NCBI GenBank assembly: GCA_964598025.1
Contig: CAZRAU010000001.1
Span: 56,201-120,200, forward strand
Direction: 5' to 3'
Length of the DNA: 64,000 bases
Source of the DNA: an uncultured bacterium
Lineage (GTDB): Bacteria; Arandabacterota; Arandabacteria; Arandabacterales; Arandabacteraceae
Shown here in pieces: positions 24,884 through 36,784 of the stretch (positions are counted from its first letter, which is position 1; each line of letters starts with the position of its first letter). The position numbers and the translations under genes are program-made. Below the pieces are notes generated by a model that had not been told where the DNA came from, did no database searches, and was given only the letters and a program-made list of their open reading frames with translations.

Positions 24884-25102
24884 TTGATACTGCTGACTCA
24901 ATTCAATGGCGATGAAGTCTATGTCAATCCGAACCTGATCGAGACCGTGGAGAGCAAGCCCGATACCGTGATCAGGCTTGCCAACGGCAGAAAGATCATA
25001 GTGCGGGAGTCGCGGGAAGATGTTGTTCGGAAGTTCACCGAATTCGCCGCCAAGGTCTCCGGATCTATTATCCAGGATAGCGAGGAACTCCAGTGGACGT
25101 AA
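24884..25102 (+). CDS. flbD: flagellar protein FlbD
   Basis: MILLTQFNGDEVYVNPNLIETVESKPDTVIRLANGRKIIVRES is FlbD-like. It lies immediately upstream of motA and overlaps it. Confidence 0.75.
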   Translation: MILLTQFNGDEVYVNPNLIETVESKPDTVIRLANGRKIIVRESREDVVRKFTEFAAKVSGSIIQDSEELQWT

Positions 25103-25875
25103 CAACGATCGTCGGAATAGTAGTGGGCGGCGGATTGCTCTTCCTGGCCATCTTCCAGGGTGGTGGTGTAGGAGTGTTCATCAACATGCCGGCGCTTATG
25201 ATCACGGCCGGGGGTACGCTTGCCGCAACGCTCATAAACTACCCTCTCGGTGATATGCTCAGAGTGGTCAAGGTCATCAAGAACGCCTTCCTTCACAAGA
25301 TGGAATCGCCCGAGCAGATGATAAAGGCACTGGTGACCTTCGCCGAGAAAGCCCGGCGTGAGGGGCTCCTGGCCCTGGAAAAGGATGCGTCGGCCATCGA
25401 AGATCCCTTTATGAAGGGAGGCCTTGAGATGGCAATAGACGGCCTCGATCCGGATCTGGTGACATCCATGCTCAGGATGGAGCTCACCTTCGTGAGCGAG
25501 AGGCACAAACGCGGTCAGGGCATGTTCAAGGCGATGGGCAAGTTCGCGCCCGCCTTCGGCATGATCGGCACCCTGATCGGGCTCATACAGATGTTGAGAT
25601 CCATCGAGGACCCATCGGCCATCGGCCCCGGCATGGCAGTGGCACTGATAACGACCTTCTACGGCACTCTGATCGCCAACCTGGTATGCATACCGCTGGC
25701 AGGCAAACTGGAGACGATATCCGAGCATGAAATCATGGTGAAGGAGCTCGTGATCGAGGGCATCAGATCGATCCAGTCGGGGGACAGCCCAAGGGTGGTG
25801 GACCGGAAGCTCAAATCGTTCCTTGCCCCAAAGATGAGGGAGAATCTTGAGACGATCAAAGCCGGAGCAAGCTGA
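25093..25875 (+). CDS. motA: flagellar stator protein MotA
   Basis: Four TM helices are predicted, and GMIGTLIGLIQML is a MotA/TolQ/ExbB motif. It has a GTG start. Confidence 0.9.
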   Translation: MDVTTIVGIVVGGGLLFLAIFQGGGVGVFINMPALMITAGGTLAATLINYPLGDMLRVVKVIKNAFLHKMESPEQMIKALVTFAEKARREGLLALEKDASAIEDPFMKGGLEMAIDGLDPDLVTSMLRMELTFVSERHKRGQGMFKAMGKFAPAFGMIGTLIGLIQMLRSIEDPSAIGPGMAVALITTFYGTLIANLVCIPLAGKLETISEHEIMVKELVIEGIRSIQSGDSPRVVDRKLKSFLAPKMRENLETIKAGAS

Positions 25876-26624
25876 TGCCGGTCACGATAAAGAAGAGGGA
25901 AGTGGAGGAAGGGGCCAGCTGGCTCACCACTTTCGGTGATATGATCACCCTGCTTTTCACGTTTTTCGTACTCGTCTATTCCTTCTGCTCATTCAACCCG
26001 GGCGAGTGGGAGACGACTTCAGGCTCCATAAAGGGGGCGTTGGGCGTCATACCCGGTACCAAAGGTGACCGCGTGATCCCCGGGGGCGGTTCCGGGGGCT
26101 TCCCCGGGCATCTCGGCGTCGTGCCGCTCTTCGGCGAGCCCTTTGTGTTCGAAGAGTCCTCACCCAAGAGACCGGCTGAGGAGTTTACCAGAATCCGCGA
26201 GAAGCTGGCGGAAACCGAGGGAATCGAGGTCGAGGAGACTGAGACGGGCTATCTGTTCAGGATTGCCACGCCCGTTCTGTTCGAAGTCGGGAGCGCGGAG
26301 ACCAAGCCTGCCGCGAGACCCTTCCTCAGGGCCATCGCGAAGGCTACATACCAGGCACCGGGCACCATTATTGTGACGGGACACACCTGCGATCTTCCCA
26401 TATCGACTGCGGACTTCGAGTCCAACTGGGAACTGTCTGCGCGCAGGGCCACACACGTCTTACGCGTAATCATGGCCGATGCCAGTCCCGATACCAGGTT
26501 CGTCGCACTGGCACGAGGACAGTACGACCCTCTGATACCCAACCGGAACGAGCTGTGCCGGGCCAGAAACAGAAGGGTGGAGATCAGATTCGACCTGGAG
26601 GGAGGCCTGCCGTTTGAGCCCTGA
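25875..26624 (+). CDS. motB: flagellar stator protein MotB (OmpA-like)
   Basis: The TM segment WLTTFGDMITLLFTFFVLV carries the conserved proton-binding Asp. The C-terminal OmpA peptidoglycan-binding domain is present (NWELSARRA...NRRVEI). Confidence 0.85.
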   Translation: MPVTIKKREVEEGASWLTTFGDMITLLFTFFVLVYSFCSFNPGEWETTSGSIKGALGVIPGTKGDRVIPGGGSGGFPGHLGVVPLFGEPFVFEESSPKRPAEEFTRIREKLAETEGIEVEETETGYLFRIATPVLFEVGSAETKPAARPFLRAIAKATYQAPGTIIVTGHTCDLPISTADFESNWELSARRATHVLRVIMADASPDTRFVALARGQYDPLIPNRNELCRARNRRVEIRFDLEGGLPFEP

Positions 26625-27378
26625 GACCTGGCCCAAAAGACCGGATAAGCCTGAGGAGGCCGACGACAGTTTCATGGTATCGTATTCGGCCCTTATGATC
26701 CTGCTCCTTACGTTCATGATACTGCTGGTGACACTTGCGAATTTCAAGGAGCCGCGCTTCAGAAAGGCCATAGGGTCGGTCAGGGGGGCCTTTTCGTTTC
26801 TGCCCTATGCCGGCGGCGACGAGATTATGGCGCACGGATCGCCCGGCTTCTTGCCCGAGAAAGTCCTGGCCAGGGCCACCACGGATGAACAGGACGAGGG
26901 AGCCTACGAACGTGTCGTAGAGGAGATGATGGCGAAGGCGAAGTCGCCGGACCTGGCGGGTTTCGAGGTGGAGGTGAGTAATGATGGTCTGGCGATCAAG
27001 TTGTCTGATTCACTGATGTTCGAGCAAGGTCGGGCGGAGCTAAGGCCCGGAATCCTCTCTCTCATGGATCTTCTGGCTGAGGTCGTGAATGCCAGACCAG
27101 GGAGAGTTTCCATCATTGGAAACACGTGCGATCTTCCAATATCGAACAAGGAATTCCCATCAAACTGGGAGCTTTCGATCATGAGGGCCGTCAATGTGCT
27201 TCATCATCTTGAGGCGCGAGGAGTAAGTCCGGAATCCCTGTATGCCTATGGGGTTGCCGATCAGAGACCCATTGTTCCGAATGAGGACGAGGCGTCAAGA
27301 CGAGAGAACCGCCGGGTAGAGGTGTACATTGCAAATCGTGGCGGGCAGGTTGATACGGCAAGCGAGGTGCTACATTGA
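26614..27378 (+). CDS. MotB-like paralog (OmpA-like) lacking the conserved TM aspartate
   Basis: Its architecture matches MotB (TM, then an OmpA domain with NWELSIMRA...NRRVEV). The TM reads FMVSYSALMILLLTFMILLV, and aligned by eye it places Ala where MotB has Asp. Confidence 0.75.
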   Translation: MSPETWPKRPDKPEEADDSFMVSYSALMILLLTFMILLVTLANFKEPRFRKAIGSVRGAFSFLPYAGGDEIMAHGSPGFLPEKVLARATTDEQDEGAYERVVEEMMAKAKSPDLAGFEVEVSNDGLAIKLSDSLMFEQGRAELRPGILSLMDLLAEVVNARPGRVSIIGNTCDLPISNKEFPSNWELSIMRAVNVLHHLEARGVSPESLYAYGVADQRPIVPNEDEASRRENRRVEVYIANRGGQVDTASEVLH

Positions 27379-28952
27379 ACACGAGGGCAGCTGATGTGAA
27401 TGCGGGTCAGCCCATTGAACGTACAAACAACAAAGACAGGGATGAAACCACAAGATCGTTGGCTCGTGCGCTATCCGGCGCACTGGATGCCCGAAATCCG
27501 AGGGCGAGAGGGCACTCACACCGGGTTGCCATGTATGCGATGGCGATAATGAACGAGCTGGAGCATGATGGTGATCCGGCATATCAGGATCTGCGTGACC
27601 GCGTGAGGATAGCCGCCCTTCTCCATGACGTCGGCAAGATCGGAATCCCCGACAGTGTGCTCCAGCGGGAGAGCGAGGTTGGTGACGATGGGAGCCGGCT
27701 TCTGAGACAGCATCCGGTCCTTGGGGCAGAGATCATGAGCTCATGTGAGGGCCTCAAAGAGGTGGTTCCGGGGGTTCTATATCACCATGAGCGGGTGGAC
27801 GGATCGGGATATCCTTTCGGGTTGACGGGGAGGAGCATTCCCCCTTCGGCCAGGGTGATCGCGCTTGCCGATGTTTTCGATGCCTTGACCACCGACTACG
27901 GGGTTGAGGAAGTATGTTCACACGAGGAAGCCCTGTGCCGGCTGAAAGGCGATCTGTCCTCAGGATTCGATCCGGACGTACTTGAGGCGCTCTCCAGGGC
28001 ACACCACAGCGGGGCTCTCCGGCATGTACGCCTGCCACATAGGCAAGAGCCGTCGGATGAGGCCGTCGATACGGTTGTGGAGAACGTATACGGCCGTCAG
28101 CTGACGTCGGTTCCGTCGCTGCCGGAGGCAATCTATAAGGTGAACTCACTTCTGGAAAGTCAGGAAGCGTCCCTGAAGGAGATAGCCACGATTCTGTCGA
28201 GCGATTCAGGGCTCGCAAGCAGGGTACTTAAGCTTGTGAATTCAGCATACTACGGGTTGCCCCGGATGGTCTCGACGATCCCCCTGGCAACGACCATTCT
28301 GGGGATCAGGGCGATCAAGAACCAGGTTGTGAACATCGCTTATGCGGATGTCATGAAAGAACTTGGTGGACGTCATGCGGAATACCGGATTCTCTGGACG
28401 CACGCCCTCAAGACAGCCGCCTGGGCGCGCATGATCTGCTCGGAGATCTCCGACATCGATCCCGAGGAGGCCTTCACGGCCGGGCTCATACATGATGTAG
28501 GACGGGCGCTGTGCCTCAGGCTCAGACCGGATACCTATGGGGGGCTCGTTACCCAGGCGGAGGTCAGCGGGAGACCATTAATCGCGATCGAAGAAGAATT
28601 GATAGGGTTCGACCACATGAGCATGGGTGGATGGATGGCAGCGAAATGGATGCTGCCGGGGTCACTGGTCAACTCGATACGGTGGCATCATGACCCGGAA
28701 CGTGTGGCGGACCAGGGGCGGGAGGCATACGAGCTCATACGCATAATCCACATAGCCGACATCGCGGCCAGGGCTTGCGAGGCGGTGGAGGTGAACTTCG
28801 TACCGTTTGTTTTGCGGGAGATAAGTCCGAGGGTGCTCAGGGAGCTTGGGAGCGCATATCTGGTGGATCTTGAACACTTCAAGGAAGCGGCCGAAGAGGC
28901 CGAAAAACAGTTAGAGGAGACTTTTGCCGAAGCCGCCGTCCATGTTTCCTGA
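27375..28952 (+). CDS. HD-GYP domain (c-di-GMP phosphodiesterase family) fused to C-terminal HDOD domain
   Basis: The HD region has HSHRV...ALLHDVGKIGIP...YHHERVDGSGYPFGL (HD-GYP). The C-terminal half reads SLPEAIYKVNSLLES...LASRVLKLVNSAYYG...LIHDVGRA (HDOD). It has a TTG start overlapping the motB' stop. Confidence 0.8.
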   Translation: MNTRAADVNAGQPIERTNNKDRDETTRSLARALSGALDARNPRARGHSHRVAMYAMAIMNELEHDGDPAYQDLRDRVRIAALLHDVGKIGIPDSVLQRESEVGDDGSRLLRQHPVLGAEIMSSCEGLKEVVPGVLYHHERVDGSGYPFGLTGRSIPPSARVIALADVFDALTTDYGVEEVCSHEEALCRLKGDLSSGFDPDVLEALSRAHHSGALRHVRLPHRQEPSDEAVDTVVENVYGRQLTSVPSLPEAIYKVNSLLESQEASLKEIATILSSDSGLASRVLKLVNSAYYGLPRMVSTIPLATTILGIRAIKNQVVNIAYADVMKELGGRHAEYRILWTHALKTAAWARMICSEISDIDPEEAFTAGLIHDVGRALCLRLRPDTYGGLVTQAEVSGRPLIAIEEELIGFDHMSMGGWMAAKWMLPGSLVNSIRWHHDPERVADQGREAYELIRIIHIADIAARACEAVEVNFVPFVLREISPRVLRELGSAYLVDLEHFKEAAEEAEKQLEETFAEAAVHVS

Positions 28953-29025
28953 ACATGCCATGGCCGGGGTGGAGTATGTGCTCTACCCGGACTGTCCCGG
29001 ACGGCCGCTTGGAAGGAGCAATCGC

Positions 29026-29904
29026 ATGGGAAACCATCTAGATGCGTTCGTGCAGTATCCCATATACCCTTCACTGACCTGGCTGGAGAAGGCTCTTCTC
29101 CGCACCAGAATGCCCTGGCCGGCCAGGTGTCCGGTCTGCGGTTCTACGACCCTTATTACCGATGTCGGCCGGAGCCTGCGAGAATCATGCAAGTGTCTGC
29201 GGTGCAAGTCCACCAACAGGCAGCGCCAGATAGCCTATGTGGTCTGTGGGGCTGTGAGCAGAATGACCGGCACCGAGATCGCATCCTTGAAGGAAGTGGC
29301 CGAACAGCAAGACTTGGTCATCTACAATACCGAAGCCGGCCGGCAAGTACACGATCGGCTGGCGGCAATGCCCGGTTACCTGTGCAGCGAGTACTTCGGA
29401 GATGCCTGTACGAGCGGGGATGTGATAGGAGGGAGGATGCACCAGGATCTCATGGCACTCTCATTTGATGACAGGAGCATAGACCTGGTCATATCATCCG
29501 ATGTGTTGGAGCATATGCCCGACCCTTACCGCGCCCACAGGGAAATCCATCGCGTGCTGAAGCCCGGAGGAACCCATGTCTTCACCGTCCCCTTCTACCA
29601 GACCGAATTCGAAGATGAGGACAGAACCATTACCGACATAAGAGGGAACACGGTTTTCATCAAAGACCCCATCTATCACGGCGATCCCATGAGATCGGAG
29701 GGGGCACTGGTTCATAAGATCTTCTCACTGGAGATGCTGGTGAAGCTGGGCAAGATCGGTTTCCGCACCAACATGTACAAGATCTATAAACCGTCCTCAG
29801 GCATTCTCGGGCCCAATGCCCTGGTGTTCGAGGCTGTCGCGCAGGAGGCGGTAACCCAGCGCCGAGAGGCACTGTCGCAAGGCAAAGTGGGAGCCGCAGC
29901 ATGA
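29026..29904 (+). CDS. SAM-dependent methyltransferase (Methyltransf_11-like) with N-terminal CxxC...CxxC zinc ribbon
   Basis: ARCPVCGS...CKCLRCKS forms the ribbon. IDLVISSDVLEHMPDPYRAHREIHRVLKPGGTHVF is a class I MTase motif. The ATG at 29026 follows GGAAGGAG. Confidence 0.7.
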   Translation: MGNHLDAFVQYPIYPSLTWLEKALLRTRMPWPARCPVCGSTTLITDVGRSLRESCKCLRCKSTNRQRQIAYVVCGAVSRMTGTEIASLKEVAEQQDLVIYNTEAGRQVHDRLAAMPGYLCSEYFGDACTSGDVIGGRMHQDLMALSFDDRSIDLVISSDVLEHMPDPYRAHREIHRVLKPGGTHVFTVPFYQTEFEDEDRTITDIRGNTVFIKDPIYHGDPMRSEGALVHKIFSLEMLVKLGKIGFRTNMYKIYKPSSGILGPNALVFEAVAQEAVTQRREALSQGKVGAAA

Positions 29905-31028
29905 CGATACCCGGGAGTCTCAACGGTATGCCGGAGCCAAGGAAGCCGGGGCCCGGCGAGGGGCAGCGTGGTGTGGGTACGCGTACCGCGCTGGATGCCG
30001 AAGAGCCCTTGCTGCAGGGTCGGCCGAGCCGCGAGGACCTGCTCGACACACTGCGAACCCGCTGCAAGAAAGGCGCGCGGGGCAGGCCTCAGAAACTGGA
30101 TCTCAGCGGCCTGGATTTCTCCGGTGAGGATCTTTCCGGCCTGGACCTTTCCGGCTATGACTTCAGCCGGGCGAACCTGGCGCGGGTCGATCTCAGCGCG
30201 TCGAATCTTGGGTGGGCGAAGCTCCGGGAGGCCAATCTTCACAGGGGGACGCTGACCGATTGCGAGCTGGTCGGGGCTGATCTGCAAGGTGCGAATCTCA
30301 GTGAGTGTTCGGCCGAAAGGTCGGGGCTGGGTGCCACCGATCTGACCGGTGCCGGACTGATCAGTGCGAACCTGCGTCACGCCACGCTTAGCGAAGCAAA
30401 CATGCGCGGCGCTGATCTGCGGGCGGCGAATCTTCAAGGCTGCAATATTCGGAGTGCGGACCTAACCAACGCGAACTGCACGCGGGCCGAACTCCAGGGG
30501 GCCGATCTTCAGGAGAGCAATGTTCTGGGCACCAGCTTTGAAGTGGCTAACCTGCAGAGGGCCCGGCTGCTCGGCATAAAGAACTATCTTAAGGCTAATT
30601 GGATCGGCACGGACATCCGTGAAGTCGATCTCCGTGGTGCCTATCTGATCCGGCGCTTCATATCGGACGAGAACTACCTCTATGAATTTCGAACCCGGAG
30701 CAAGTACCACAAGGTCCTCTACCGCCTCTGGTGGTTGACTTCGGATTGCGGCCGGAGCCTCTCTCGCTGGACCTTCTGGGTGGCGGCGGTGACGGTGGTC
30801 TTCGCGATTCTGTATAGTACCACCGATGTGGACTACGGCGCCCATCGCACCGTCTTCTCTCCTCTCTATTACAGTGTAGTGACTCTAACGACACTCGGCT
30901 ACGGTGACGTAGTCCCGGCTTCGGGTGGGGCCCAGGCGATCGCAGCCATACAGGCTGTGCTTGGCTATGTGGGCCTGGGGGGATTCCTGAGCATATTGGC
31001 GAACAAGATGGCCCGAAGGGCCGACTGA
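29901..31028 (+). CDS. pentapeptide-repeat domain fused to a 2-TM K+-channel-type pore (TTLGYGD selectivity filter)
   Basis: About 200 aa of A(D/N)LxG pentapeptide repeats (ANLARVDLSASNLGWAKLREANLHRGTL...). Then TM1, a pore helix SVVTLTTLGYGDVVP and TM2. ATGA overlap with the upstream MTase. Confidence 0.75.
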   Translation: MTIPGSLNGMPEPRKPGPGEGQRGVGTRTALDAEEPLLQGRPSREDLLDTLRTRCKKGARGRPQKLDLSGLDFSGEDLSGLDLSGYDFSRANLARVDLSASNLGWAKLREANLHRGTLTDCELVGADLQGANLSECSAERSGLGATDLTGAGLISANLRHATLSEANMRGADLRAANLQGCNIRSADLTNANCTRAELQGADLQESNVLGTSFEVANLQRARLLGIKNYLKANWIGTDIREVDLRGAYLIRRFISDENYLYEFRTRSKYHKVLYRLWWLTSDCGRSLSRWTFWVAAVTVVFAILYSTTDVDYGAHRTVFSPLYYSVVTLTTLGYGDVVPASGGAQAIAAIQAVLGYVGLGGFLSILANKMARRAD

Positions 31029-31050
31029 TCGCCAATCGGAGGGTACGAAA

Positions 31051-31899
31051 ATGTCATTGCTACGATTAGGCAGGAAGAGCGATCCGAAGGGCAAGCTGAA
31101 GAAGGTCCTCGGTGAATACAATCTGCCTTCATTCCCGGGCGCCGTCATGCAAGTGCTTCAGACAATTCGCGACCCCCGGTCCTCAGCGTCTTCGGTTGCC
31201 GATGTCCTCGCAGTCGATCCCGGCCTCTCGGTGCGGGTGCTGCGTGTGGCCAATTCACCGGTGTTCTCCCCGGTTCGAAAGGTCGAGAACCTTGCCCAGG
31301 CGGTAGCTCTTGTCGGACTGACGGAGCTGGAGTCGCTGGTCCTTTCGATAAGCGTCAGGGGAAATCTGCCTCGCGACTCAGCAGAAGGCTACGACTTCGC
31401 GAGATTCTGGCGGGCTTCAGCGAGGCGAGGTTTCGTGGCCCGGGCGCTGGCGGAAATCCTGTGCCCGGCCCGGGAGTCCGAGAGTTTCACGGCGGGCCTC
31501 CTACAGGATATGGCCCTTCCTTTCCTTGCCCATCAGAGATCCAAGGAATACGGTCCGGTCCTTCACCAGTGGCACACCACCGATGTGCTCCTGCATGAGC
31601 TGGAGCGCGAGGTATTCGGCTGGGACCACGCCGAGGTTGGGGCCTGGATCTGTGACGAGTGGAATCTTCCCGAGAGTATAGTCTCTGCCATAGGCAGCCA
31701 CCATCCCGGTGGCGTCCGCAACGGGTGTCCGGTATCGGTGGCTCTAGCGGCCTACCTGCGCGAGGCTGAGGACAGGACCGGCGTGGATAGCCTTATCAAG
31801 ATGGCTGCGACCGAGTATCAGATCAGCGCTGAAAGGGCCGGTGAGATCGTCGAATCGGCGTTCCGGCAAGCGGAAGAATTCACCCAACTCCTCGGTTGA
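31051..31899 (+). CDS. HDOD domain protein
   Basis: PSFPGAVMQVLQTIRDP...SVRVLRVANSPVFS...GLLQDMA...HAEVGAWI are HDOD hallmarks. 282 aa. Confidence 0.8.
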   Translation: MSLLRLGRKSDPKGKLKKVLGEYNLPSFPGAVMQVLQTIRDPRSSASSVADVLAVDPGLSVRVLRVANSPVFSPVRKVENLAQAVALVGLTELESLVLSISVRGNLPRDSAEGYDFARFWRASARRGFVARALAEILCPARESESFTAGLLQDMALPFLAHQRSKEYGPVLHQWHTTDVLLHELEREVFGWDHAEVGAWICDEWNLPESIVSAIGSHHPGGVRNGCPVSVALAAYLREAEDRTGVDSLIKMAATEYQISAERAGEIVESAFRQAEEFTQLLG

Positions 31900-31910: not shown

Positions 31911-32768
31911 CTAAAACAGTTTCTTCACCTCGGCCACTTCGTCTTCGAGGTCAACCATCAGGCCGGCAATCTCGATGTCGCTGAGATTGAGGTATTCGAT
32001 CGACCGTTGGCTCAGGAGATCCATCTCTGTATCGGGCCTAAGATGGAACCCCATCTTACACGATATCGCGTCCGCCGCTTGTATCTGCATTGTCAGCGGC
32101 TGGTCGGGATCAATCTCCTCATCGTGATGGTGCAGCGCCGCATAGCAGATGGGTTCCGGCACACTCCATGTGGTCAGTGTTCTATGACCGAGCTCGGTAT
32201 GGAGAACGGCCATCAGTTCGTCCAGCACCACGGGCGTTATCTCCGCCCCATCATGACCCTCAACATAATCCACGGCGCGGAGTACCAGGAGTTTGCCCGT
32301 GTCATGCAGCAGACCTGCCACAAACGCCTCCTCCGGCTCCAGGCCGGTGAGCCCCGCTACATGTTTTGATGCCATCGCCGTTGTGACGGCGTGGCTCCAG
32401 AGGGTCTCGAGAAGTCGGGACTTCTCGGGATCATCCGATTGAAAGTGCCCACTGTGTGCAAGTGCCGTGACCGCCGATGTCACTTGCCTGAAACCAAGCC
32501 TTGCAATTGCCAGGGACAGATCGGAAACCGGGTTCAGACCGCCGAAGGCGGCGGAGTTTGCCCACCTCAGAAGTGTCGCCGCGATGGCAGGATCGGTCCC
32601 CACGAGTGCCGCAATCCTCTTGGAGCTGGTGCTGCCCTGGTCCCTGAGGAGCTCCATGAGGCGATTCACGAGATTGGGAAGTGGCGGAAGAGCGATCGTC
32701 CCGGCATCCACAACTGCGCGGATGCTGTCTGCAATGGATTGTGTTGTCAATGCTGTTGTCTTGTTCAC
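31911..32768 (-). CDS. HDOD domain protein
   Basis: LPPLPNLVNRLMELLRD...AATLLRWANSAAFG...GLLHDTGKLL are HDOD hallmarks. It overlaps the upstream ATPase stop by 4 nt. Confidence 0.8.
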   Translation of the reverse strand: MNKTTALTTQSIADSIRAVVDAGTIALPPLPNLVNRLMELLRDQGSTSSKRIAALVGTDPAIAATLLRWANSAAFGGLNPVSDLSLAIARLGFRQVTSAVTALAHSGHFQSDDPEKSRLLETLWSHAVTTAMASKHVAGLTGLEPEEAFVAGLLHDTGKLLVLRAVDYVEGHDGAEITPVVLDELMAVLHTELGHRTLTTWSVPEPICYAALHHHDEEIDPDQPLTMQIQAADAISCKMGFHLRPDTEMDLLSQRSIEYLNLSDIEIAGLMVDLEDEVAEVKKLF

Positions 32769-34732
32769 CGTGCCCTCCTTAGTGCAGCGGTTTCCCTGAT
32801 GGTTGTCATGTCTCTGAGCTCGGAGTCGCGGGGAGCGTTGTCTGCGATCTCAGAAAGGGTGGTCTGTCCGGCGGCGACTTTTAGAAGGCCGTCCTCTTCA
32901 AGGGTAAGGAACCCCGGGATCATCTTCGCGATACGCCTGAGATCTCTGGATGAAGCCTTCGCTAGAATGGCGTCACGGAAATCGTCATCCAAGAGCAGGA
33001 CCTCATGTATGCCCATACGTCCGAGGTAGCCGGTGCCGCCACATTCGGGGCAACCGGCGCCCGCAAGCAGGGGCACGCCTCTCAGATAATCGCGGTCAAG
33101 TCCGAGGAAACGGAGGTCCTTCTTGGAGGGTTCGACCGGCCTTCGGCAGTTCTCGCAGATGCGCCTGACCAGACGCTGGGCAATGACACATGTCAATGTC
33201 GATGCTACCAGGAAAGGTTCGACCTTCATCTCGAGAAGACGCACCACCGTGGCCACCCCATCATCGGTGTGAAATGTCGAGAACACCTTGTGGCCGGTCA
33301 GGGCTGCCTCCGTGGCAAGCCCCGCCGTCACACTGTCACGGATCTCGCCGACAACGATCACATCGGGATCCTGACGGACAATGGACTTAAGGGAGTCCGC
33401 GAAGGTCGGGCCGCTCTTCTCATTCACCGAACACTGAGTAGTACCGTCGAGAACATATTCGACGGGATTCTCGCAGGATATGATCTTGAGGCTGTCATCT
33501 CTGGTAAAATCCACGAACGAATACATGGTGGTCGTCTTGCCGCTCCCGGTCGGTCCGGTGATCAGTACGAGACCGCTGGAACTTCTGAGCACGACCTCCC
33601 TGAGCAAACCCAGTATTCTGGGTTCGAAGCCCAGGGCATCAAGCGGAACAAGCCCCCGCCGGCGATCGAGCAGCCGCAGTACAAGCGTCTCCCCGAATAC
33701 CGATGCATAGGAGCTCACCCTTATGTCCACGCCCCTGCCGCCGGCATCCACGAAGAACCTGCCATCCTGATGCAGCCGCCGCTCGGCTATATCCATCTTC
33801 GCAAGCACTTTCACCCGGGAGAGTATGCGCGGGGCGAAGTCGTTCGGAAGATCGGTTAGGTGACGCAAGACGCCATCCACCCTTACCCTTGCTCGTACCT
33901 TGTTCTCAAGGGGCTCGATATGGAGATCGCTGGCGCCGAGGTCTATAGCTTGTGACAGAACATGATCCACAATTGCGGTAGCCCCTTCCCCTGCTTCTTC
34001 GTCCTGCGGCATCTCCTGGATGTCCTTATACTGGAGGACCGTCGACATCTCCACGCCACTGCAATCTCTGAAGCGCTCCAGGGTGCGGAGGGCTTCCTCG
34101 ATCTTGGCGGTAACCGCGGCGCAGGGCCTTATGGGCTGGCCGTAGGTTCGCTCCAGCTCGTCGATCAGAGCGGTATTGAGAGGGTCCGACATAACGACAT
34201 TCAGATGGCCTTCGACGACCCTGAGTGGGAGGGCCTGCTGGCGGATAAGATACGGAATGGAGACCTGCGACAGCGTTGCCGTGTCGACCAGACTCACATC
34301 CGGCTCGATGTACGGGATGTCGTCCTTCGCGCAGAGTGCCCTGAGGTATTGCTCTTCTGTAATCAAGCCCTCTTTAAGGAGCACCTCGCGTTCGCCCAGA
34401 TTGGGACTCTTCGACTTGGCTGCGTGATATCGGGCCAACCCCTCCGCATCGAGAAGGCCATCCTCGAAGAGAATGCGCGCGGTGCTGAGTCTGGACCTGT
34501 ATAGGTGCATGACCCGATCGTGCTCCGACCTGGTGAGCTGTCCGAGGTCCACGAGCACGTTCCCTACCGATCTGGCCTCCTGGAGACGACCCGCCACGCG
34601 ACGGGCGCGTTTCAGCTGCTCCTCGGTGACCAGGTTCTCCGCAAGCAGCAGATTCTCAAACTCGACAGGATGGTGCTGTTCCTCGGGGGGCCGTTCGGCC
34701 CTGGTTACAGTGGTGCTATCTGATGGATTCAT
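32765..34732 (-). CDS. GspE/PilB/MshE-family secretion ATPase with two N-terminal MshEN-type (c-di-GMP-binding) motifs
   Basis: Walker A LITGPTGSGKTT and a tetracysteine CENC...CPEC are present. The N-terminus has GNVLVDLGQLTRSEHDRVMHL and GEREVLLKEGLITEEQYLRAL, resembling the MshEN RLGxxLLxxGxITxxQLxxAL motif. The ORF-track start at 35197 gives a 155-aa Arg/Pro-rich extension, which I rejected. The ATG at 34732 follows GGGGAGGA. Confidence 0.85.
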   Translation of the reverse strand: MNPSDSTTVTRAERPPEEQHHPVEFENLLLAENLVTEEQLKRARRVAGRLQEARSVGNVLVDLGQLTRSEHDRVMHLYRSRLSTARILFEDGLLDAEGLARYHAAKSKSPNLGEREVLLKEGLITEEQYLRALCAKDDIPYIEPDVSLVDTATLSQVSIPYLIRQQALPLRVVEGHLNVVMSDPLNTALIDELERTYGQPIRPCAAVTAKIEEALRTLERFRDCSGVEMSTVLQYKDIQEMPQDEEAGEGATAIVDHVLSQAIDLGASDLHIEPLENKVRARVRVDGVLRHLTDLPNDFAPRILSRVKVLAKMDIAERRLHQDGRFFVDAGGRGVDIRVSSYASVFGETLVLRLLDRRRGLVPLDALGFEPRILGLLREVVLRSSSGLVLITGPTGSGKTTTMYSFVDFTRDDSLKIISCENPVEYVLDGTTQCSVNEKSGPTFADSLKSIVRQDPDVIVVGEIRDSVTAGLATEAALTGHKVFSTFHTDDGVATVVRLLEMKVEPFLVASTLTCVIAQRLVRRICENCRRPVEPSKKDLRFLGLDRDYLRGVPLLAGAGCPECGGTGYLGRMGIHEVLLLDDDFRDAILAKASSRDLRRIAKMIPGFLTLEEDGLLKVAAGQTTLSEIADNAPRDSELRDMTTIRETAALRRAR

Positions 34733-35014
34733 AGTGCGTCCTCCCCACCAGTATCTTCGGCAAGAACCGGGGTTGTCTTGAGCACCGGGAAGGCGCCCGG
34801 GTCGCCTGGGGAACCGCCTATGGCCCGCGACCAGGGCGTCTCGCCGGGGTGGGGTGCCCGGATGTTCCGCGTCGCATAACTTGACAAATCCCCGCACAGT
34901 GCTATCCTTCCCTATAGACTGCGATATGGCCATCAGGGATGTTGGGCGCATGCATGGGATGGTATGCACCAATAGACGGGTCGACAGGTTCAATAGCGCC
35001 TTGAGATCCGGATT

Positions 35015-36784
35015 GTGGGCGGAGCGCCTGTGAAGAGTGAGAGACGACGTCGGGTTACCACGCGGGAGCTTATGGCCGAGCTCCGTCGGAGCGAGGCTCA
35101 GTACAGATCTACGATCGACTCCATGACCGATGCCCTTCACGTTGTGGATCGGGATCTCAGGATCGTTCTCATGAACAGGGCCTTCCTCGATTGGCACGAG
35201 AGGCTCGGTCTCACAGGAGACGCAGTCGGCAAGTTATTGAATGAAGTCTATGATTTCCTCCCCCCAAGTGTGGAAGAAGAGTACCGGAAGGTCTTCAAGG
35301 CCGGCGAGTTGTTGACCACCGAAGAGCTCACGACGATCGGCGACAGAGAGATCACTACCGAAACCAGGAAGATCCCGATCTGTGAAAGAGGGAAGGTTGT
35401 CAAAGTCATAACCATAGTGCGTGATATCACCGAGCGTAAGTGCATGGAGAAGGCCCTGAGGCTGAGTGAGGCGAAATTCAAGACCCTCGCGGAACAGTCC
35501 CCCAACATGATTTTCATGCACCGGATGGGCAAGATCGTATATGTGAACAAGAAGTGCGCGGAGATAATGGGATACACAAGGGAAGAATTCTATGCGCCGG
35601 GATTCGACTTCTTGTGCGTCGCGGCTCCGGAGTCCATCACGGATATAGCGGGCGGGTACTCGGCCTACCTGGAGGGGCGCGGGTATCACTCACATGAGGC
35701 TACGCTTATTACGAAGAGCGGGAGGAGAATCGACTGTATTGTGGCGTGGTCCGCGGTCGACTACGGTGACGGCAAAGCCATGTTGGGGGTTGTGACGGAC
35801 ATCACCGGCCGGAAAGACGCGGAGAGGTCGCTCAGGATCAGTGAAGAGAAATACCGGTCCTTTGTCGAAAACTTCCATGGCATTGCATACCGCGGGGGTT
35901 CGGATGGGGCCCCCATATTCTTCCATGGGGATGTTCGGAGAATAACGGGATATGCCGAGGAGGAATTCCTCCGGGGCATGCCGGCCTGGACGGATATTGT
36001 TCTGCCGGAAGACAGGCAAGAACCCCACGGGGGGCCATTGATGGAAAACCCCAGGGGCGGTGTGCAGCCGGCTGAACGTGAATACAGGATACGAAGAAGA
36101 GACGGTGAGATCCGATGGATCCATCAGTCCTTGCGGCCCGTCCGTGATGAATCGGGTGCGGCTATGTATCTTCAAGGAGCCCTTTACGATGTCACGGCCC
36201 GGAGAGTTGCTGAAGACAAGAGCGCGCGTGAGCGTAGCGCCTTCGGGAGCATTGTGGATGCTGCAACCACGAGCAAAGGGCCGCCCGAGGTATGCGAGAA
36301 GGTTTTGTGCGGATTGATCGCGACTCTGGGTTTCGACTGCGGGGTAGTACGCCTGTATGACCGGGAGACTCGAACGCTCAATCTCGTATGTACACACGGC
36401 TTCACTCCCAGCGAAGTTGACAGGTATCTACATGATCAGCATATCGACGATTCCCGTGGTATCGCCGCCCTTGTAGGGCGGACGCTGAAGGCGGTGTGGG
36501 CGCCGGATGTGTCGCATAGTGAGGAAATGAAAGAATACAGGCACCGGTGCTCGGAGGTGCGTGTGAGGTCCATGATAGGGTGGCCGCTGGTTTCCTCGGA
36601 TCGCACTTTGCTGGGGGTAATGCATCTGATGGGCCGGACCCCGAGAGACATCCCGGAAGAAGACCGCGTCTTTTTCCGGACGGTCGGTGACATGTTCGTG
36701 GTTGTGCTGGAGTGGAAACAAGCAGAGCAATCCATCAAGAGTAGTGAGGCAAGGTACAGGAGCCATTTCGAGAACTCTCCATAG
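35015..36784 (+). CDS. cytoplasmic PAS-PAS-PAS-GAF sensor protein ending inside the N-cap of a further PAS domain (no output domain; possibly truncated)
   Basis: Repeated PAS N-caps (SEAQYRSTIDSMTDAL, SEAKFKTLAEQSPNMIF, SEEKYRSFVENFHGI) and a GAF-like segment are present. The protein ends ...SEARYRSHFENSP and then a stop. It has a GTG start, and the start position is uncertain. Confidence 0.65.
   Translation: MGGAPVKSERRRRVTTRELMAELRRSEAQYRSTIDSMTDALHVVDRDLRIVLMNRAFLDWHERLGLTGDAVGKLLNEVYDFLPPSVEEEYRKVFKAGELLTTEELTTIGDREITTETRKIPICERGKVVKVITIVRDITERKCMEKALRLSEAKFKTLAEQSPNMIFMHRMGKIVYVNKKCAEIMGYTREEFYAPGFDFLCVAAPESITDIAGGYSAYLEGRGYHSHEATLITKSGRRIDCIVAWSAVDYGDGKAMLGVVTDITGRKDAERSLRISEEKYRSFVENFHGIAYRGGSDGAPIFFHGDVRRITGYAEEEFLRGMPAWTDIVLPEDRQEPHGGPLMENPRGGVQPAEREYRIRRRDGEIRWIHQSLRPVRDESGAAMYLQGALYDVTARRVAEDKSARERSAFGSIVDAATTSKGPPEVCEKVLCGLIATLGFDCGVVRLYDRETRTLNLVCTHGFTPSEVDRYLHDQHIDDSRGIAALVGRTLKAVWAPDVSHSEEMKEYRHRCSEVRVRSMIGWPLVSSDRTLLGVMHLMGRTPRDIPEEDRVFFRTVGDMFVVVLEWKQAEQSIKSSEARYRSHFENSP

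What the first reader, a model, noticed from the sequence alone, without database searches (positions are those of the whole stretch)
29901..31028. Pentapeptide-repeat beta-helix fused to a KcsA-like 2TM potassium-channel pore
A cytoplasmic domain of about 200 aa built from A(D/N)LxG pentapeptide repeats is followed by TM1, a pore helix with the canonical TLTTLGYGD filter, and TM2. In effect it is a K+ channel whose gating domain is a pentapeptide-repeat solenoid. It is encoded inside the stator operon.
Basis: seen in the sequence. Interest (0 to 1): 0.6.

Follow-up and report, generated by a model that had tools for sequence, protein, structure and literature searches.

The report
Pentapeptide-repeat K+ channel with HDOD partner
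This gene encodes a potassium-channel pore fused to a cytoplasmic pentapeptide-repeat beta-helix, a widespread but almost unstudied kind of channel, and in every related genome examined it sits directly upstream of a small HDOD signalling protein that is probably its regulator.

Summary
ORF 29901-31028 (+) encodes 375 aa. Residues 65-250 form about 37 unbroken pentapeptide repeats. Two conserved linker helices follow, then TM1, a pore helix, the filter TLTTLGYGD and TM2.

The filter is essentially invariant in 57 orthologues from at least six phyla, and exactly two hydrophobic segments flank it.

The architecture is not new. Pentapeptide plus Ion_trans_2 proteins form a large superfamily: 813 clusters at 50% identity match the pore module at E<=1e-10. 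One distant member, the Hailong anti-phage effector HalA, is a characterised tetrameric channel.

It is a 282-aa HDOD protein with a degenerate HD motif (QD). It follows the channel gene in all 80 loci that have downstream sequence. The pairing is reciprocal (4 of 4 tested from the HDOD side), and the two genes diverge in step (r=0.95). More distant pentapeptide channels lack HDOD.

The stator-operon setting is real but clade-specific. It is shared only by the closest relatives (64-78% identity).

Best reading: a K+-selective channel whose beta-helix crown is controlled by a dedicated HDOD subunit. This is a new variant of a known kind.

The parts
29901..31028 (+). Channel gene, 375 aa: pentapeptide-repeat beta-helix fused to a 2TM K+ pore. 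Its ATG overlaps the stop of the upstream methyltransferase gene (ATGA).
   Evidence: The same 4-nt overlap occurs in relatives L067 and L069.
29901..30020 (+). Residues 1-40: poorly conserved N-terminus predicted to be disordered.
   Evidence: pLDDT is below 50 for residues 1-37. Conservation is low.
30030..30062 (+). Residues 44-54: N-terminal capping helix of the beta-helix.
   Evidence: Helix 44-54 in the AF2 model. L51, C55 and P63 are nearly invariant.
30093..30650 (+). Residues 65-250: about 37 pentapeptide repeats forming a right-handed quadrilateral beta-helix. One face carries a ladder of conserved charged residues: E122, position 182 (R in 93% of the family, N here), D202, R222, R240 and D243.
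   Evidence: Pfam, register, pLDDT about 98, Foldseek top hits all pentapeptide-repeat proteins, e.g. 4yei at TM 0.78, face analysis.
30642..30752 (+). Residues 248-284: two conserved linker helices. The first carries D256-E-N-Y-L-Y-E-F. The second is interfacial and ends in W277...S281-D-C-G-R-S286. Proposed coupler between the crown and the gate.
   Evidence: Invariant columns, helices 248-266 and 268-284. The profile aligns this region with the stretch of Kv4 that runs from the S4-S5 linker into S5.
30759..30821 (+). Residues 287-307: TM1 (outer helix).
30858..30908 (+). Residues 320-336: pore helix (PLYYSVV) and selectivity filter T328-L-T-T-L-G-Y-G-D336.
   Evidence: The alignment to KcsA covers the pore helix, filter and TM2.
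30924..31022 (+). Residues 342-374: TM2 (inner helix). It has invariant glycines G355 (aligned with the KcsA G99 hinge), G360 and G361, and ends in the basic motif NKMARRA.
31038..31042 (+). GGAGG Shine-Dalgarno sequence for the HDOD gene. It lies 8 nt before the ATG and 9 nt after the channel stop.
   Evidence: Sequence read directly.
31051..31899 (+). HDOD partner gene, 282 aa, stand-alone HDOD domain. The HD motif is degenerate (Q152-D153). D153, H193, H217 and H218 are conserved.
   Evidence: Pfam HDOD at 181.6 bits, motif analysis. It lies downstream of the channel in every locus with downstream DNA. Reciprocity. Co-divergence r=0.95.
28924..29904 (+). Class I SAM methyltransferase. The true start is probably near 29026, which would give 292 aa as in relatives. 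It is translationally coupled to the channel gene in this clade only.
   Evidence: Absent from the 60 genome loci.
27375..28952 (+). HD-GYP-type HD domain fused to an HDOD domain. Clade-specific neighbour, absent in the relative L067.
24884..27378 (+). flbD (24884-25102), motA (25093-25875), motB (25875-26624) and motB' (26614-27378): the flagellar stator genes that head the co-directional gene series.
   Evidence: The order is conserved in close relatives.

Best explanation
The gene encodes a subunit of a K+-selective channel of the 2TM/P-loop type. The channel is presumed to be tetrameric. Four TM1-pore helix-TM2 units would form the pore, with the filter T-T-L-G-Y-G-D. Each subunit hangs a beta-helix of about 190 aa (9-10 coils of pentapeptide repeats) into the cytoplasm, and together these would form a crown under the pore. 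The crown connects to TM1 through two strictly conserved helices, DENYLYEF and W...SDCGRS, which are positioned like a slide helix or S4-S5 linker. Movements of the crown would be passed through these helices to the inner-helix gate (G355 hinge, NKMARR end). The channel works with a dedicated partner, the 282-aa HDOD protein encoded 22 nt downstream, which is always co-inherited with it. The most likely role of the partner is a regulatory subunit that opens or closes the channel. It could do this by binding the crown directly, for example on the conserved charged face, or by sensing or relaying a small ligand or metal in its partly degenerate HD pocket. The output is a K+ flux and so a change in membrane potential. 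In this organism's clade the pair has been inserted into the flbD-motAB operon, next to c-di-GMP-type signalling genes. This suggests that here the electrical output is co-regulated with, and may tune, flagellar motility. Shown: architecture, topology, filter conservation, the gene pairing and its specificity. Inferred: tetramer, K+ selectivity, gating by the crown, the HDOD-channel interaction and the motility link.
For: Both domains score above Pfam thresholds. Exactly two TM segments flank the P-loop. The K+ signature is invariant across phyla. It aligns residue for residue with KcsA: YY/WW aromatic pair, TxxTxGYGD, G355 to G99. Profile hits include Kv4, TOK1, K2P and KirBac pores. The beta-helix is modelled at pLDDT about 98 and matches solved pentapeptide-repeat proteins. 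The linker motifs and C-terminus are invariant. An HDOD orthologue lies directly downstream, usually 10-30 nt away, in 57 of 57 genome loci, 19 of 19 metagenome loci and 3 of 3 close relatives that have downstream DNA. Six other loci end at the contig edge. Starting from the HDOD side, 4 of 4 homologues have the channel gene upstream. Pairwise divergences of the two proteins correlate at r=0.95, with 0 of 999 Mantel permutations reaching that value. Channels at 40% identity or less lack HDOD, so the pairing marks one discrete clade. No third gene is conserved: 138 Pfam families occur among the 110 nearest neighbours. A GGAGG sits in the 22-nt gap. Precedent: HalA is a tetrameric ion channel with a cytoplasmic crown, is described as having the same pentapeptide-plus-K-channel architecture, and is controlled through a partner gene. 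Its NCBIfam model aligns end to end with this protein, though weakly. The stator context is conserved in close relatives. HDOD proteins have repeatedly been linked to motility phenotypes.
Against: No functional data exist for any member of this clade. The tetramer and the HDOD-channel contact could not be modelled because only single-chain prediction was available. HDOD domains have no established biochemical activity, and SadB's HDOD acts without ligand binding, so the signal is unknown. The second filter position is Leu rather than Val or Ile. Only backbone carbonyls line the pore, so this is probably harmless, but it is untested. The high beta-helix/HDOD correlation may only reflect similar evolutionary rates. 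The stator link is absent from most of the family. No promoter or terminator signal above chance resolves the transcription units.
Confidence: 0.68

Rival explanations
1. It is a Hailong-like abortive-infection system. The channel would be a toxic membrane-depolarising effector kept closed by its partner. Here the partner would be an HDOD protein rather than the HalB nucleotidyltransferase. The channel would be released when a phage interferes with the partner or its ligand.
For: It shares its architecture with HalA and gives a weak end-to-end match to the HalA model. It is a compact two-gene effector-plus-regulator cassette. Its distribution across phyla is patchy, covering Desulfobacterota, Myxococcota, Gemmatimonadota, Spirochaetes, Acidimicrobiia and Colwellia. 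HD-superfamily partners could act on nucleotide ligands.
Against: The score is 17.7 bits against a 250-bit cut-off for HalA. No nucleotidyltransferase is nearby. There are no PADLOC hits, although the 2023 library predates Hailong. The flanking genes are housekeeping or signalling genes with no defence-island or mobile-element signature. Neighbourhoods are stable within lineages: the DAO, VWA and stator contexts are each shared by several species. The strict K+ filter is conserved, whereas HalA is reported to let Na+ in. There were no matches in phage genomes.
Confidence: 0.12
2. It is a dedicated accessory of the flagellar stator. The K+ channel would exist to set the membrane potential or supply and recycle the coupling ion for the MotA/MotB/MotB' motor units encoded in the same operon.
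For: In the window and in three relatives at 64-78% identity, the channel-HDOD pair lies in a co-directional, overlapping series after flbD-motA-motB-motB'. The pair also neighbours motAB in a spirochaete (L043) and flagellin/FliD in L138, L146 and L147. HDOD proteins affect motility in several species.
Against: Only 1 of 60 species-level orthologous genome loci has stator genes within 8 kb. No flagellar family appears among the 25 most frequent nearest-neighbour families. The pair is therefore an autonomous module that was recruited to a motility operon in one clade. No evidence bears on the ion used by this motor.
Confidence: 0.15
3. The pentapeptide-repeat domain is not a gate. It would be a passive scaffold or DNA-mimic decoy tethered to the membrane by a channel-like anchor, and the pore would be incidental or non-conducting.
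For: Most characterised pentapeptide-repeat proteins (MfpA, Qnr, AlbG) act as DNA mimics on gyrase, and they are the closest solved folds.
Against: Purifying selection is strongest on the pore. Mean identity is 62% in the linker plus TM part against 49% in the beta-helix. The full K+ signature, the hinge glycines and the linker are invariant. A mere anchor would not need these.
Confidence: 0.04

Closest known systems
HalA, effector of the Hailong anti-phage system (Tan et al. 2025, Nature 643:794, as summarised in PMC13434031 and PMC13276650; NCBIfam NF051894)
   Same: It is described as having the same domain order and a similar size, with pentapeptide repeats followed by a C-terminal K-channel-like 2TM pore. 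The HalA model aligns over residues 70-370 of this protein, and over positions 236-337 of 338 with the pore alone. HalA is a homotetramer with a cytoplasmic crown that receives the regulatory input, and it is encoded next to its regulator.
   Different: The relationship is very distant: 15-18 bits against a 250-bit cut-off. The partner here is an HDOD protein, not the HalB nucleotidyltransferase. There is no defence-island context. This family keeps a strict TxGYGD K+ filter, whereas HalA activation is reported as Na+ influx and depolarisation. I could not retrieve a HalA sequence or structure to compare filters directly.
KcsA and other prokaryotic 2TM K+ channels (KirBac, MthK pore; Pfam Ion_trans_2)
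   Same: Outer helix, pore helix, TxxTxGYGD and inner helix with a glycine hinge. It is 36% identical to KcsA over 47 residues that span the pore helix, filter and TM2. The profile also hits KirBac3.1, Kv4, K2P and TOK1.
   Different: The regulatory domain is N-terminal and is a beta-helix, not a C-terminal bundle, RCK or Kir-type domain. The protein ends right after TM2. Two family-specific linker helices precede TM1.
Soluble pentapeptide-repeat proteins (HetL, MfpA, Qnr, Np275/276, designed beta1 solenoids)
   Same: The same right-handed quadrilateral beta-helix, with Foldseek E-values of 1e-13 to 1e-9.
   Different: Those proteins are free cytoplasmic or lumenal proteins, several of which mimic DNA. 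This one is covalently tethered to an ion pore and is conserved most strongly at its membrane-proximal coils.
GFG-type pentapeptide-repeat channels (second tier of the same superfamily: TFTTLGFGD ... ILANKLARRS)
   Same: The same architecture and 40-50% identity in the pore module.
   Different: The filter has Phe in place of Tyr. There is no HDOD partner. One sub-clade instead has a GAF plus degenerate-GGDEF gene downstream.
Stand-alone HDOD proteins (PDB 3m1t, 3hc1, 1vqr/Cj0248; SadB C-domain)
   Same: The partner protein is a full-length HDOD domain, with E=4e-22 to 3m1t. HDOD proteins have been tied to motility phenotypes.
   Different: This subfamily has Q instead of H in the HD motif in 54 of 59 members. 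It is always encoded behind a channel gene. The searched literature does not report such an association.

Membership tests
P-loop K+ channel, 2TM type (Pfam Ion_trans_2) | Sequence match to the pore-domain family above the curated threshold | tested here: met
   PF07885 scores 42.5 bits against a cut-off of 22.5, over residues 295-370. The profile hits solved Kv, K2P, TOK1 and KirBac pores.
P-loop K+ channel, 2TM type (Pfam Ion_trans_2) | K+ signature sequence T-x-x-T-x-G-Y/F-G-D/E after a pore helix, conserved in orthologues | tested here: met
   T328-L-T-T-L-G-Y-G-D336. T328, T331, L332, G333, Y334, G335 and D336 are invariant in 52 sequences. 57 orthologues carry GYGD or GFGD. Aligned with the KcsA filter.
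P-loop K+ channel, 2TM type (Pfam Ion_trans_2) | Two transmembrane helices flanking the P-loop, with both termini cytoplasmic | tested here: met
   There are exactly two hydrophobic segments. AF2 gives helices at 287-307 and 342-374. Basic residues lie before TM1 (R285, R289) and after TM2 (K369, R372, R373), as read from the sequence.
P-loop K+ channel, 2TM type (Pfam Ion_trans_2) | Assembly as a tetramer around a central pore | not testable with these tools
   Only single-chain structure prediction was available.
P-loop K+ channel, 2TM type (Pfam Ion_trans_2) | Selective K+ conduction | not testable with these tools
   This needs electrophysiology, flux assays or complementation.
Pentapeptide-repeat proteins | Tandem A(D/N)LXX repeats matching Pfam Pentapeptide | tested here: met
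   PF00805 scores 110.6 bits against a cut-off of 20.2. About 37 repeats run in one register.
Pentapeptide-repeat proteins | Right-handed quadrilateral beta-helix fold | tested here: met
   The AF2 model has pLDDT about 98 with one short strand every five residues. The top 50 Foldseek PDB hits are nearly all pentapeptide-repeat structures.
Hailong HalA (NCBIfam NF051894) | Score at or above the curated equivalog cut-off of 250 bits | tested here: not met
   17.7 bits for the full length and 14.9 bits for the pore alone.
Hailong HalA (NCBIfam NF051894) | Adjacent HalB nucleotidyltransferase gene | tested here: not met
   The neighbours are a SAM methyltransferase and an HDOD protein. No nucleotidyltransferase family is among the 25 most frequent of the 138 Pfam families found in 110 flanking genes of orthologous loci.
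Hailong HalA (NCBIfam NF051894) | Pentapeptide repeats followed by a K-channel-like C-terminal pore | tested here: met
   The architecture is described. The HalA model aligns over residues 70-370.
Hailong HalA (NCBIfam NF051894) | Anti-phage activity; location in defence islands | tested here: inconclusive
   No PADLOC hit, but the 2023 library lacks Hailong. The flanks carry no defence or mobile-element genes. Activity itself is not testable here.
HDOD domain proteins (for the partner gene) | Match to Pfam HDOD PF08668 | tested here: met
   181.6 bits over positions 1-194 of 196. Solved relatives are 3m1t, 3p3q and 3hc1.
Catalytic HD or HD-GYP phosphohydrolases (for the partner gene) | Intact H...HD...D metal-binding motif | tested here: not met
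   The HD doublet is Q-D in 54 of 59 orthologues. Only D153, H193, H217 and H218 are conserved.

The most novel reading that the evidence does not exclude
The HDOD domain, whose biochemical role has stayed unknown since it was defined, would here be the gating subunit of an ion channel. More generally, pentapeptide-repeat channels would be a class of partner-gated channels. Their beta-helix crown would read out proteins from nucleotide-signalling families: the HalB nucleotidyltransferase in Hailong, GAF-GGDEF in one sub-clade, and HDOD in this clade. In the window's lineage this would wire a second-messenger-type signal through K+ flux and membrane potential directly to the flagellar stator, acting as an electrical throttle on motility.
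Probability: 0.25. Interest if true: 0.8.

Novelty: new variant of a known kind. Interest (0 to 1): 0.55.

Why it matters
Pentapeptide-repeat channels are abundant. At 50% clustering, 813 protein clusters match the pore module at E<=1e-10, nine of ten sampled second-tier members carry the same architecture, and databases name them only 'pentapeptide repeat-containing protein'. Only the distant anti-phage effector HalA has been studied. This clade keeps a textbook K+ filter and comes with one obligatory partner, so it is a clean system for asking how a beta-helix solenoid gates a pore. It also gives HDOD domains a concrete, testable molecular target, which is rare: they are widespread in c-di-GMP and motility signalling but have no known biochemical function. 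The insertion of the pair into a stator operon in one lineage offers a natural experiment on whether bacteria regulate motility through a dedicated K+ conductance.

Tried and rejected

2. Reading the primary Hailong paper. It is not held, so statements about HalA rest on two reviews and a preprint.

3. The stator operon as a family-wide context. Rejected: 1 of 60 genome loci.

4. The methyltransferase as a conserved partner. Rejected: 0 of 60 outside the close clade.

5. A third conserved gene. Rejected by ORF clustering and by a Pfam census of 110 flanking genes.

6. A phage or plasmid origin. There were no phage matches to the pore. The viral structure library gave only beta-helix matches. 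Plasmid hits are other pentapeptide-channel types with neither HDOD nor a nucleotidyltransferase beside them.

7. Conserved antisense ORFs inside the gene. Dismissed as shadow ORFs of a repeat-rich, high-GC gene.

8. Promoter and terminator scans gave nothing above the shuffle expectation.

9. Identifying the source organism. The exact protein has no named record. The nearest genomes are Thermodesulfobacteriota MAGs at 63% identity or less.

10. Context of second-tier proteins through single look-ups. The contigs were too short, so I used the metagenome scan instead.

11. Modelling an HDOD-channel complex. Not attempted, because only single chains can be predicted and coordinates or PAE are not returned.
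Full report
**The observation**

The ORF at 29901-31028 (+) exists and translates to 375 aa.

- Pfam finds Pentapeptide (PF00805, 110.6 bits, cut-off 20.2) and Ion_trans_2 (PF07885, 42.5 bits, cut-off 22.5).
- The pentapeptide register is unbroken from residue 65 to about 250, which is 37 units.
- A hydropathy scan gives exactly two hydrophobic segments, 290-310 and 345-368, and nothing above 0.67 elsewhere.
- An AlphaFold2 model built on 52 homologues has mean pLDDT 85.5 and pTM 0.75. It shows a disordered N-terminus (1-37), a capping helix (44-54), a beta-helix at pLDDT about 98 (about 60-245), two helices (248-266 and 268-284), TM1 (287-307), a pore helix (320-331) and TM2 (342-374).
- Basic residues sit on the cytoplasmic side of both TM helices, so the topology is N-in/C-in as in KcsA.

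**Conservation**

A scan of one genome per species returned 60 orthologous loci at 43-63% identity. They come from Desulfobacterales, Desulfarculaceae, Syntrophobacteria, Myxococcota, Gemmatimonadota, Spirochaetes, Zetaproteobacteria, Acidimicrobiia and Colwellia.

- 49 of 57 extracted orthologues have TLGYGD. The others have SLGYGD, GLGYGD or TLGFGD.
- In alignment A1 the invariant columns include the whole filter, the linker (D256, N258, Y259, L260, E262, F263), the pre-TM1 motif S281-x-C-G-R-S286, the glycines G355, G360 and G361, and A371-R-R.

**How common the architecture is**

- All 120 best database hits carry Pentapeptide plus Ion_trans_2. Their sources name them only as 'hypothetical' or 'pentapeptide repeat-containing'.
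- An exhaustive search with the C-terminal 131 aa found 5,351 clusters (50% identity) at E<=1e-3, 813 at <=1e-10 and 47 at <=1e-30. The module always lies at the extreme C-terminus.
- The core group has TLGYGD, TSDCGRS and NKMARRA(D/E).
- A larger second tier has TFTTLGFGD and ILANKLARRS. Nine of ten sampled members are also Pentapeptide plus Ion_trans_2.
- Further variants occur on cyanobacterial and haloarchaeal plasmids.
- The fusion is therefore a large, old superfamily and not a curiosity.

**The characterised relative, HalA**

NCBIfam gave a weak but end-to-end hit to the Hailong effector HalA: residues 70-370 against model positions 55-336 of 338, at 17.7 bits against a cut-off of 250. 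The pore alone matches model positions 236-337.

- Reviews summarise HalA as a homotetrameric channel with a cytoplasmic crown. Oligo-dA made by HalB binds at the subunit interfaces and keeps it closed. Loss of that ligand during infection opens it and depolarises the cell.
- The idea that a pentapeptide solenoid gates a channel thus has experimental precedent.
- This protein is not a HalA. The score is far below the cut-off and there is no nucleotidyltransferase beside it.

**The conserved partner**

I ran tblastn with the window's neighbour proteins against the 60 genome loci.

- The stator proteins match in one locus (L043).
- The methyltransferase matches in none.
- The downstream HDOD protein (31051-31899) matches at 32-56% identity directly after the channel gene in 57 loci. 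The three exceptions end at the contig edge.
- Intergenic gaps are typically 10-30 nt.
- In the window the gap is 22 nt and holds a GGAGG 8 nt before the ATG.

A metagenome scan seeded with second-tier pores returned 80 loci.

- The 22 loci whose channel is at least 43% identical to the window protein all have the HDOD gene downstream where sequence exists (19 of 19).
- The 58 loci with channels at 40% identity or less do not, apart from one weak, non-adjacent case.

Further tests of the pairing:

- Starting from the HDOD side, 704 homologues were found at E<=1e-10, and the 120 listed are all about 282 aa (a few truncated).
- Four homologues chosen because their contigs had not appeared in the channel list all have a Pentapeptide plus Ion_trans_2 gene 11-28 nt upstream.
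- Pairwise divergences of the two proteins correlate at r=0.95, and 0 of 999 Mantel permutations reach that value.
- The beta-helix tracks HDOD (r=0.95) better than it tracks its own pore (r=0.90). This fits co-evolution but is confounded by similar rates.
- No third gene is conserved. ORF clustering and a Pfam census of 110 nearest neighbours gave 138 families. PAS kinases (7), ABC ATPases (6) and VWA proteins (6) lead the list, with no defence or mobile-element signature.
- The searched literature holds no paper that mentions HDOD together with pentapeptide repeats or potassium channels.

**The partner protein**

- It is a stand-alone HDOD domain (181.6 bits).
- Its solved relatives are 3m1t, 3p3q, 3hc1 and Cj0248.
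- Its HD doublet is Q-D in 54 of 59 orthologues, while D153, H193, H217 and H218 are conserved. A canonical phosphohydrolase site is unlikely, but a reduced metal or ligand pocket is possible.
- HDOD domains have no agreed function. SadB's HDOD acts as part of an adaptor without ligand binding.
- Several HDOD proteins affect motility.

**The stator context**

In the window the genes are co-directional and overlap or abut. The one larger gap is an inferred ~73 nt between the HD-GYP/HDOD stop and the probable methyltransferase start:

- flbD (24884-25102)
- motA (25093-25875)
- motB (25875-26624)
- motB' (26614-27378)
- HD-GYP/HDOD (27375-28952)
- methyltransferase (to 29904)
- channel (29901-31028)
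- HDOD (31051-31899)

No terminator-like site exceeds chance. Three independent relatives at 64-78% identity keep this order, one of them without the HD-GYP gene.

Elsewhere the pair neighbours motAB in a spirochaete (L043) and flagellin/FliD in L138, L146 and L147. Most loci have no flagellar genes nearby. The stator link is real but clade-specific. It looks like recruitment of an autonomous module.

**Mechanism**

The steps shown are the architecture, the topology, the conserved K+ signature, the conserved linker and hinge, and the obligatory, reciprocal, co-diverging HDOD partner.

The steps inferred are these:

- The subunits tetramerise.
- The pore is K+-selective.
- The four beta-helices form a crown, as in HalA.
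- The crown transmits through the DENYLYEF and SDCGRS helices to the inner-helix gate. The profile aligns this region with the stretch of Kv4 that runs from the S4-S5 linker into S5.
- HDOD regulates the gate, either by binding the crown or by relaying a ligand. The crown has a conserved charged ladder on one face, and conservation rises towards the membrane.
- A parallel supports partner control as a general theme. Another pentapeptide-channel sub-clade has a GAF plus degenerate-GGDEF gene about 100 nt downstream, and Hailong has a nucleotidyltransferase. All three partners come from nucleotide-signalling families.

**Rivals**

- A Hailong-like defence role is possible. It is disfavoured by the context, the stable synteny within lineages, the strict K+ filter and the lack of a nucleotidyltransferase.
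- A dedicated stator accessory fits this clade but not the family.
- A non-conducting anchor is contradicted by stronger constraint on the pore (62% mean identity) than on the beta-helix (49%).

**Verdict**

The protein is a member of a known but barely studied superfamily. The new element is a strictly conserved channel-HDOD cassette, which in this lineage is embedded in the stator operon. This is a new variant of a known kind, of moderate interest.

Noticed in passing
window 26614-27378 (+), compared with 25875-26624 (+): A single motA is followed by two MotB paralogues that are 30% identical. In the alignment, the first has the conserved TM aspartate (TTFGDMITLL). The second has alanine at that position (VSYSALMILL), so it appears to lack the ion-coupling Asp. 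Both paralogues are kept in the close relatives L067 and L069.
   Followed up: partly
window 27375-28952 (+), 31051-31899 (+), 31911-32768 (-), 32765-35197 (-), 35015-36784 (+): There is a dense cluster of c-di-GMP-flavoured signalling genes around the channel: an HD-GYP-type HD domain fused to HDOD, two further stand-alone HDOD genes (one with an intact HD motif), an MshEN-domain T2SSE ATPase, and a triple-PAS plus GAF protein.
   Followed up: partly
window 28924-29904 (+): A class I SAM methyltransferase with a Cys-rich N-terminal stretch (CPVCGS...CKCLRCKS). Its stop overlaps the channel start. It is found next to the channel only in the closest clade and is absent from the 60 genome loci. 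Its substrate is unknown.
   Followed up: partly
loci L100, L102, L103, L104, L108, L111 (e.g. L102:3394-4467): A sub-clade of GFG-type pentapeptide channels has a conserved gene about 100 nt downstream. It encodes a GAF domain plus a degenerate, sub-threshold GGDEF domain. This is a second kind of dedicated partner for this channel superfamily.
   Followed up: partly
window 29784-30437 (-) and 30462-30845 (-): Long antisense ORFs (217 and 127 aa) lie inside the channel gene, and similar ones recur in orthologous loci. They are shadow ORFs of a high-GC, repeat-rich gene and not genes.
   Followed up: yes
window channel residue 182 (nt 30444-30446): The window protein has Asn where 93% of orthologues have Arg. 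This position belongs to the conserved charged ladder on one face of the beta-helix.
   Followed up: no
L043:680-4172; L138, L146, L147 (flagellin/FliD within 3 kb of the pair): Outside the window's clade, the channel-HDOD pair sits next to motA-motB in a Spirochaetaceae MAG and next to flagellin and FliD in three metagenome contigs. The arrangements differ between them. This may be a weak recurrent association with motility genes.
   Followed up: partly
L156:4385-7855; L153:4735-6744: In other genomes the pair is flanked by a CLC channel fused to a response-regulator receiver domain and by a Na+/H+ exchanger (L156), or by a dCache chemoreceptor (L153).
   Followed up: no
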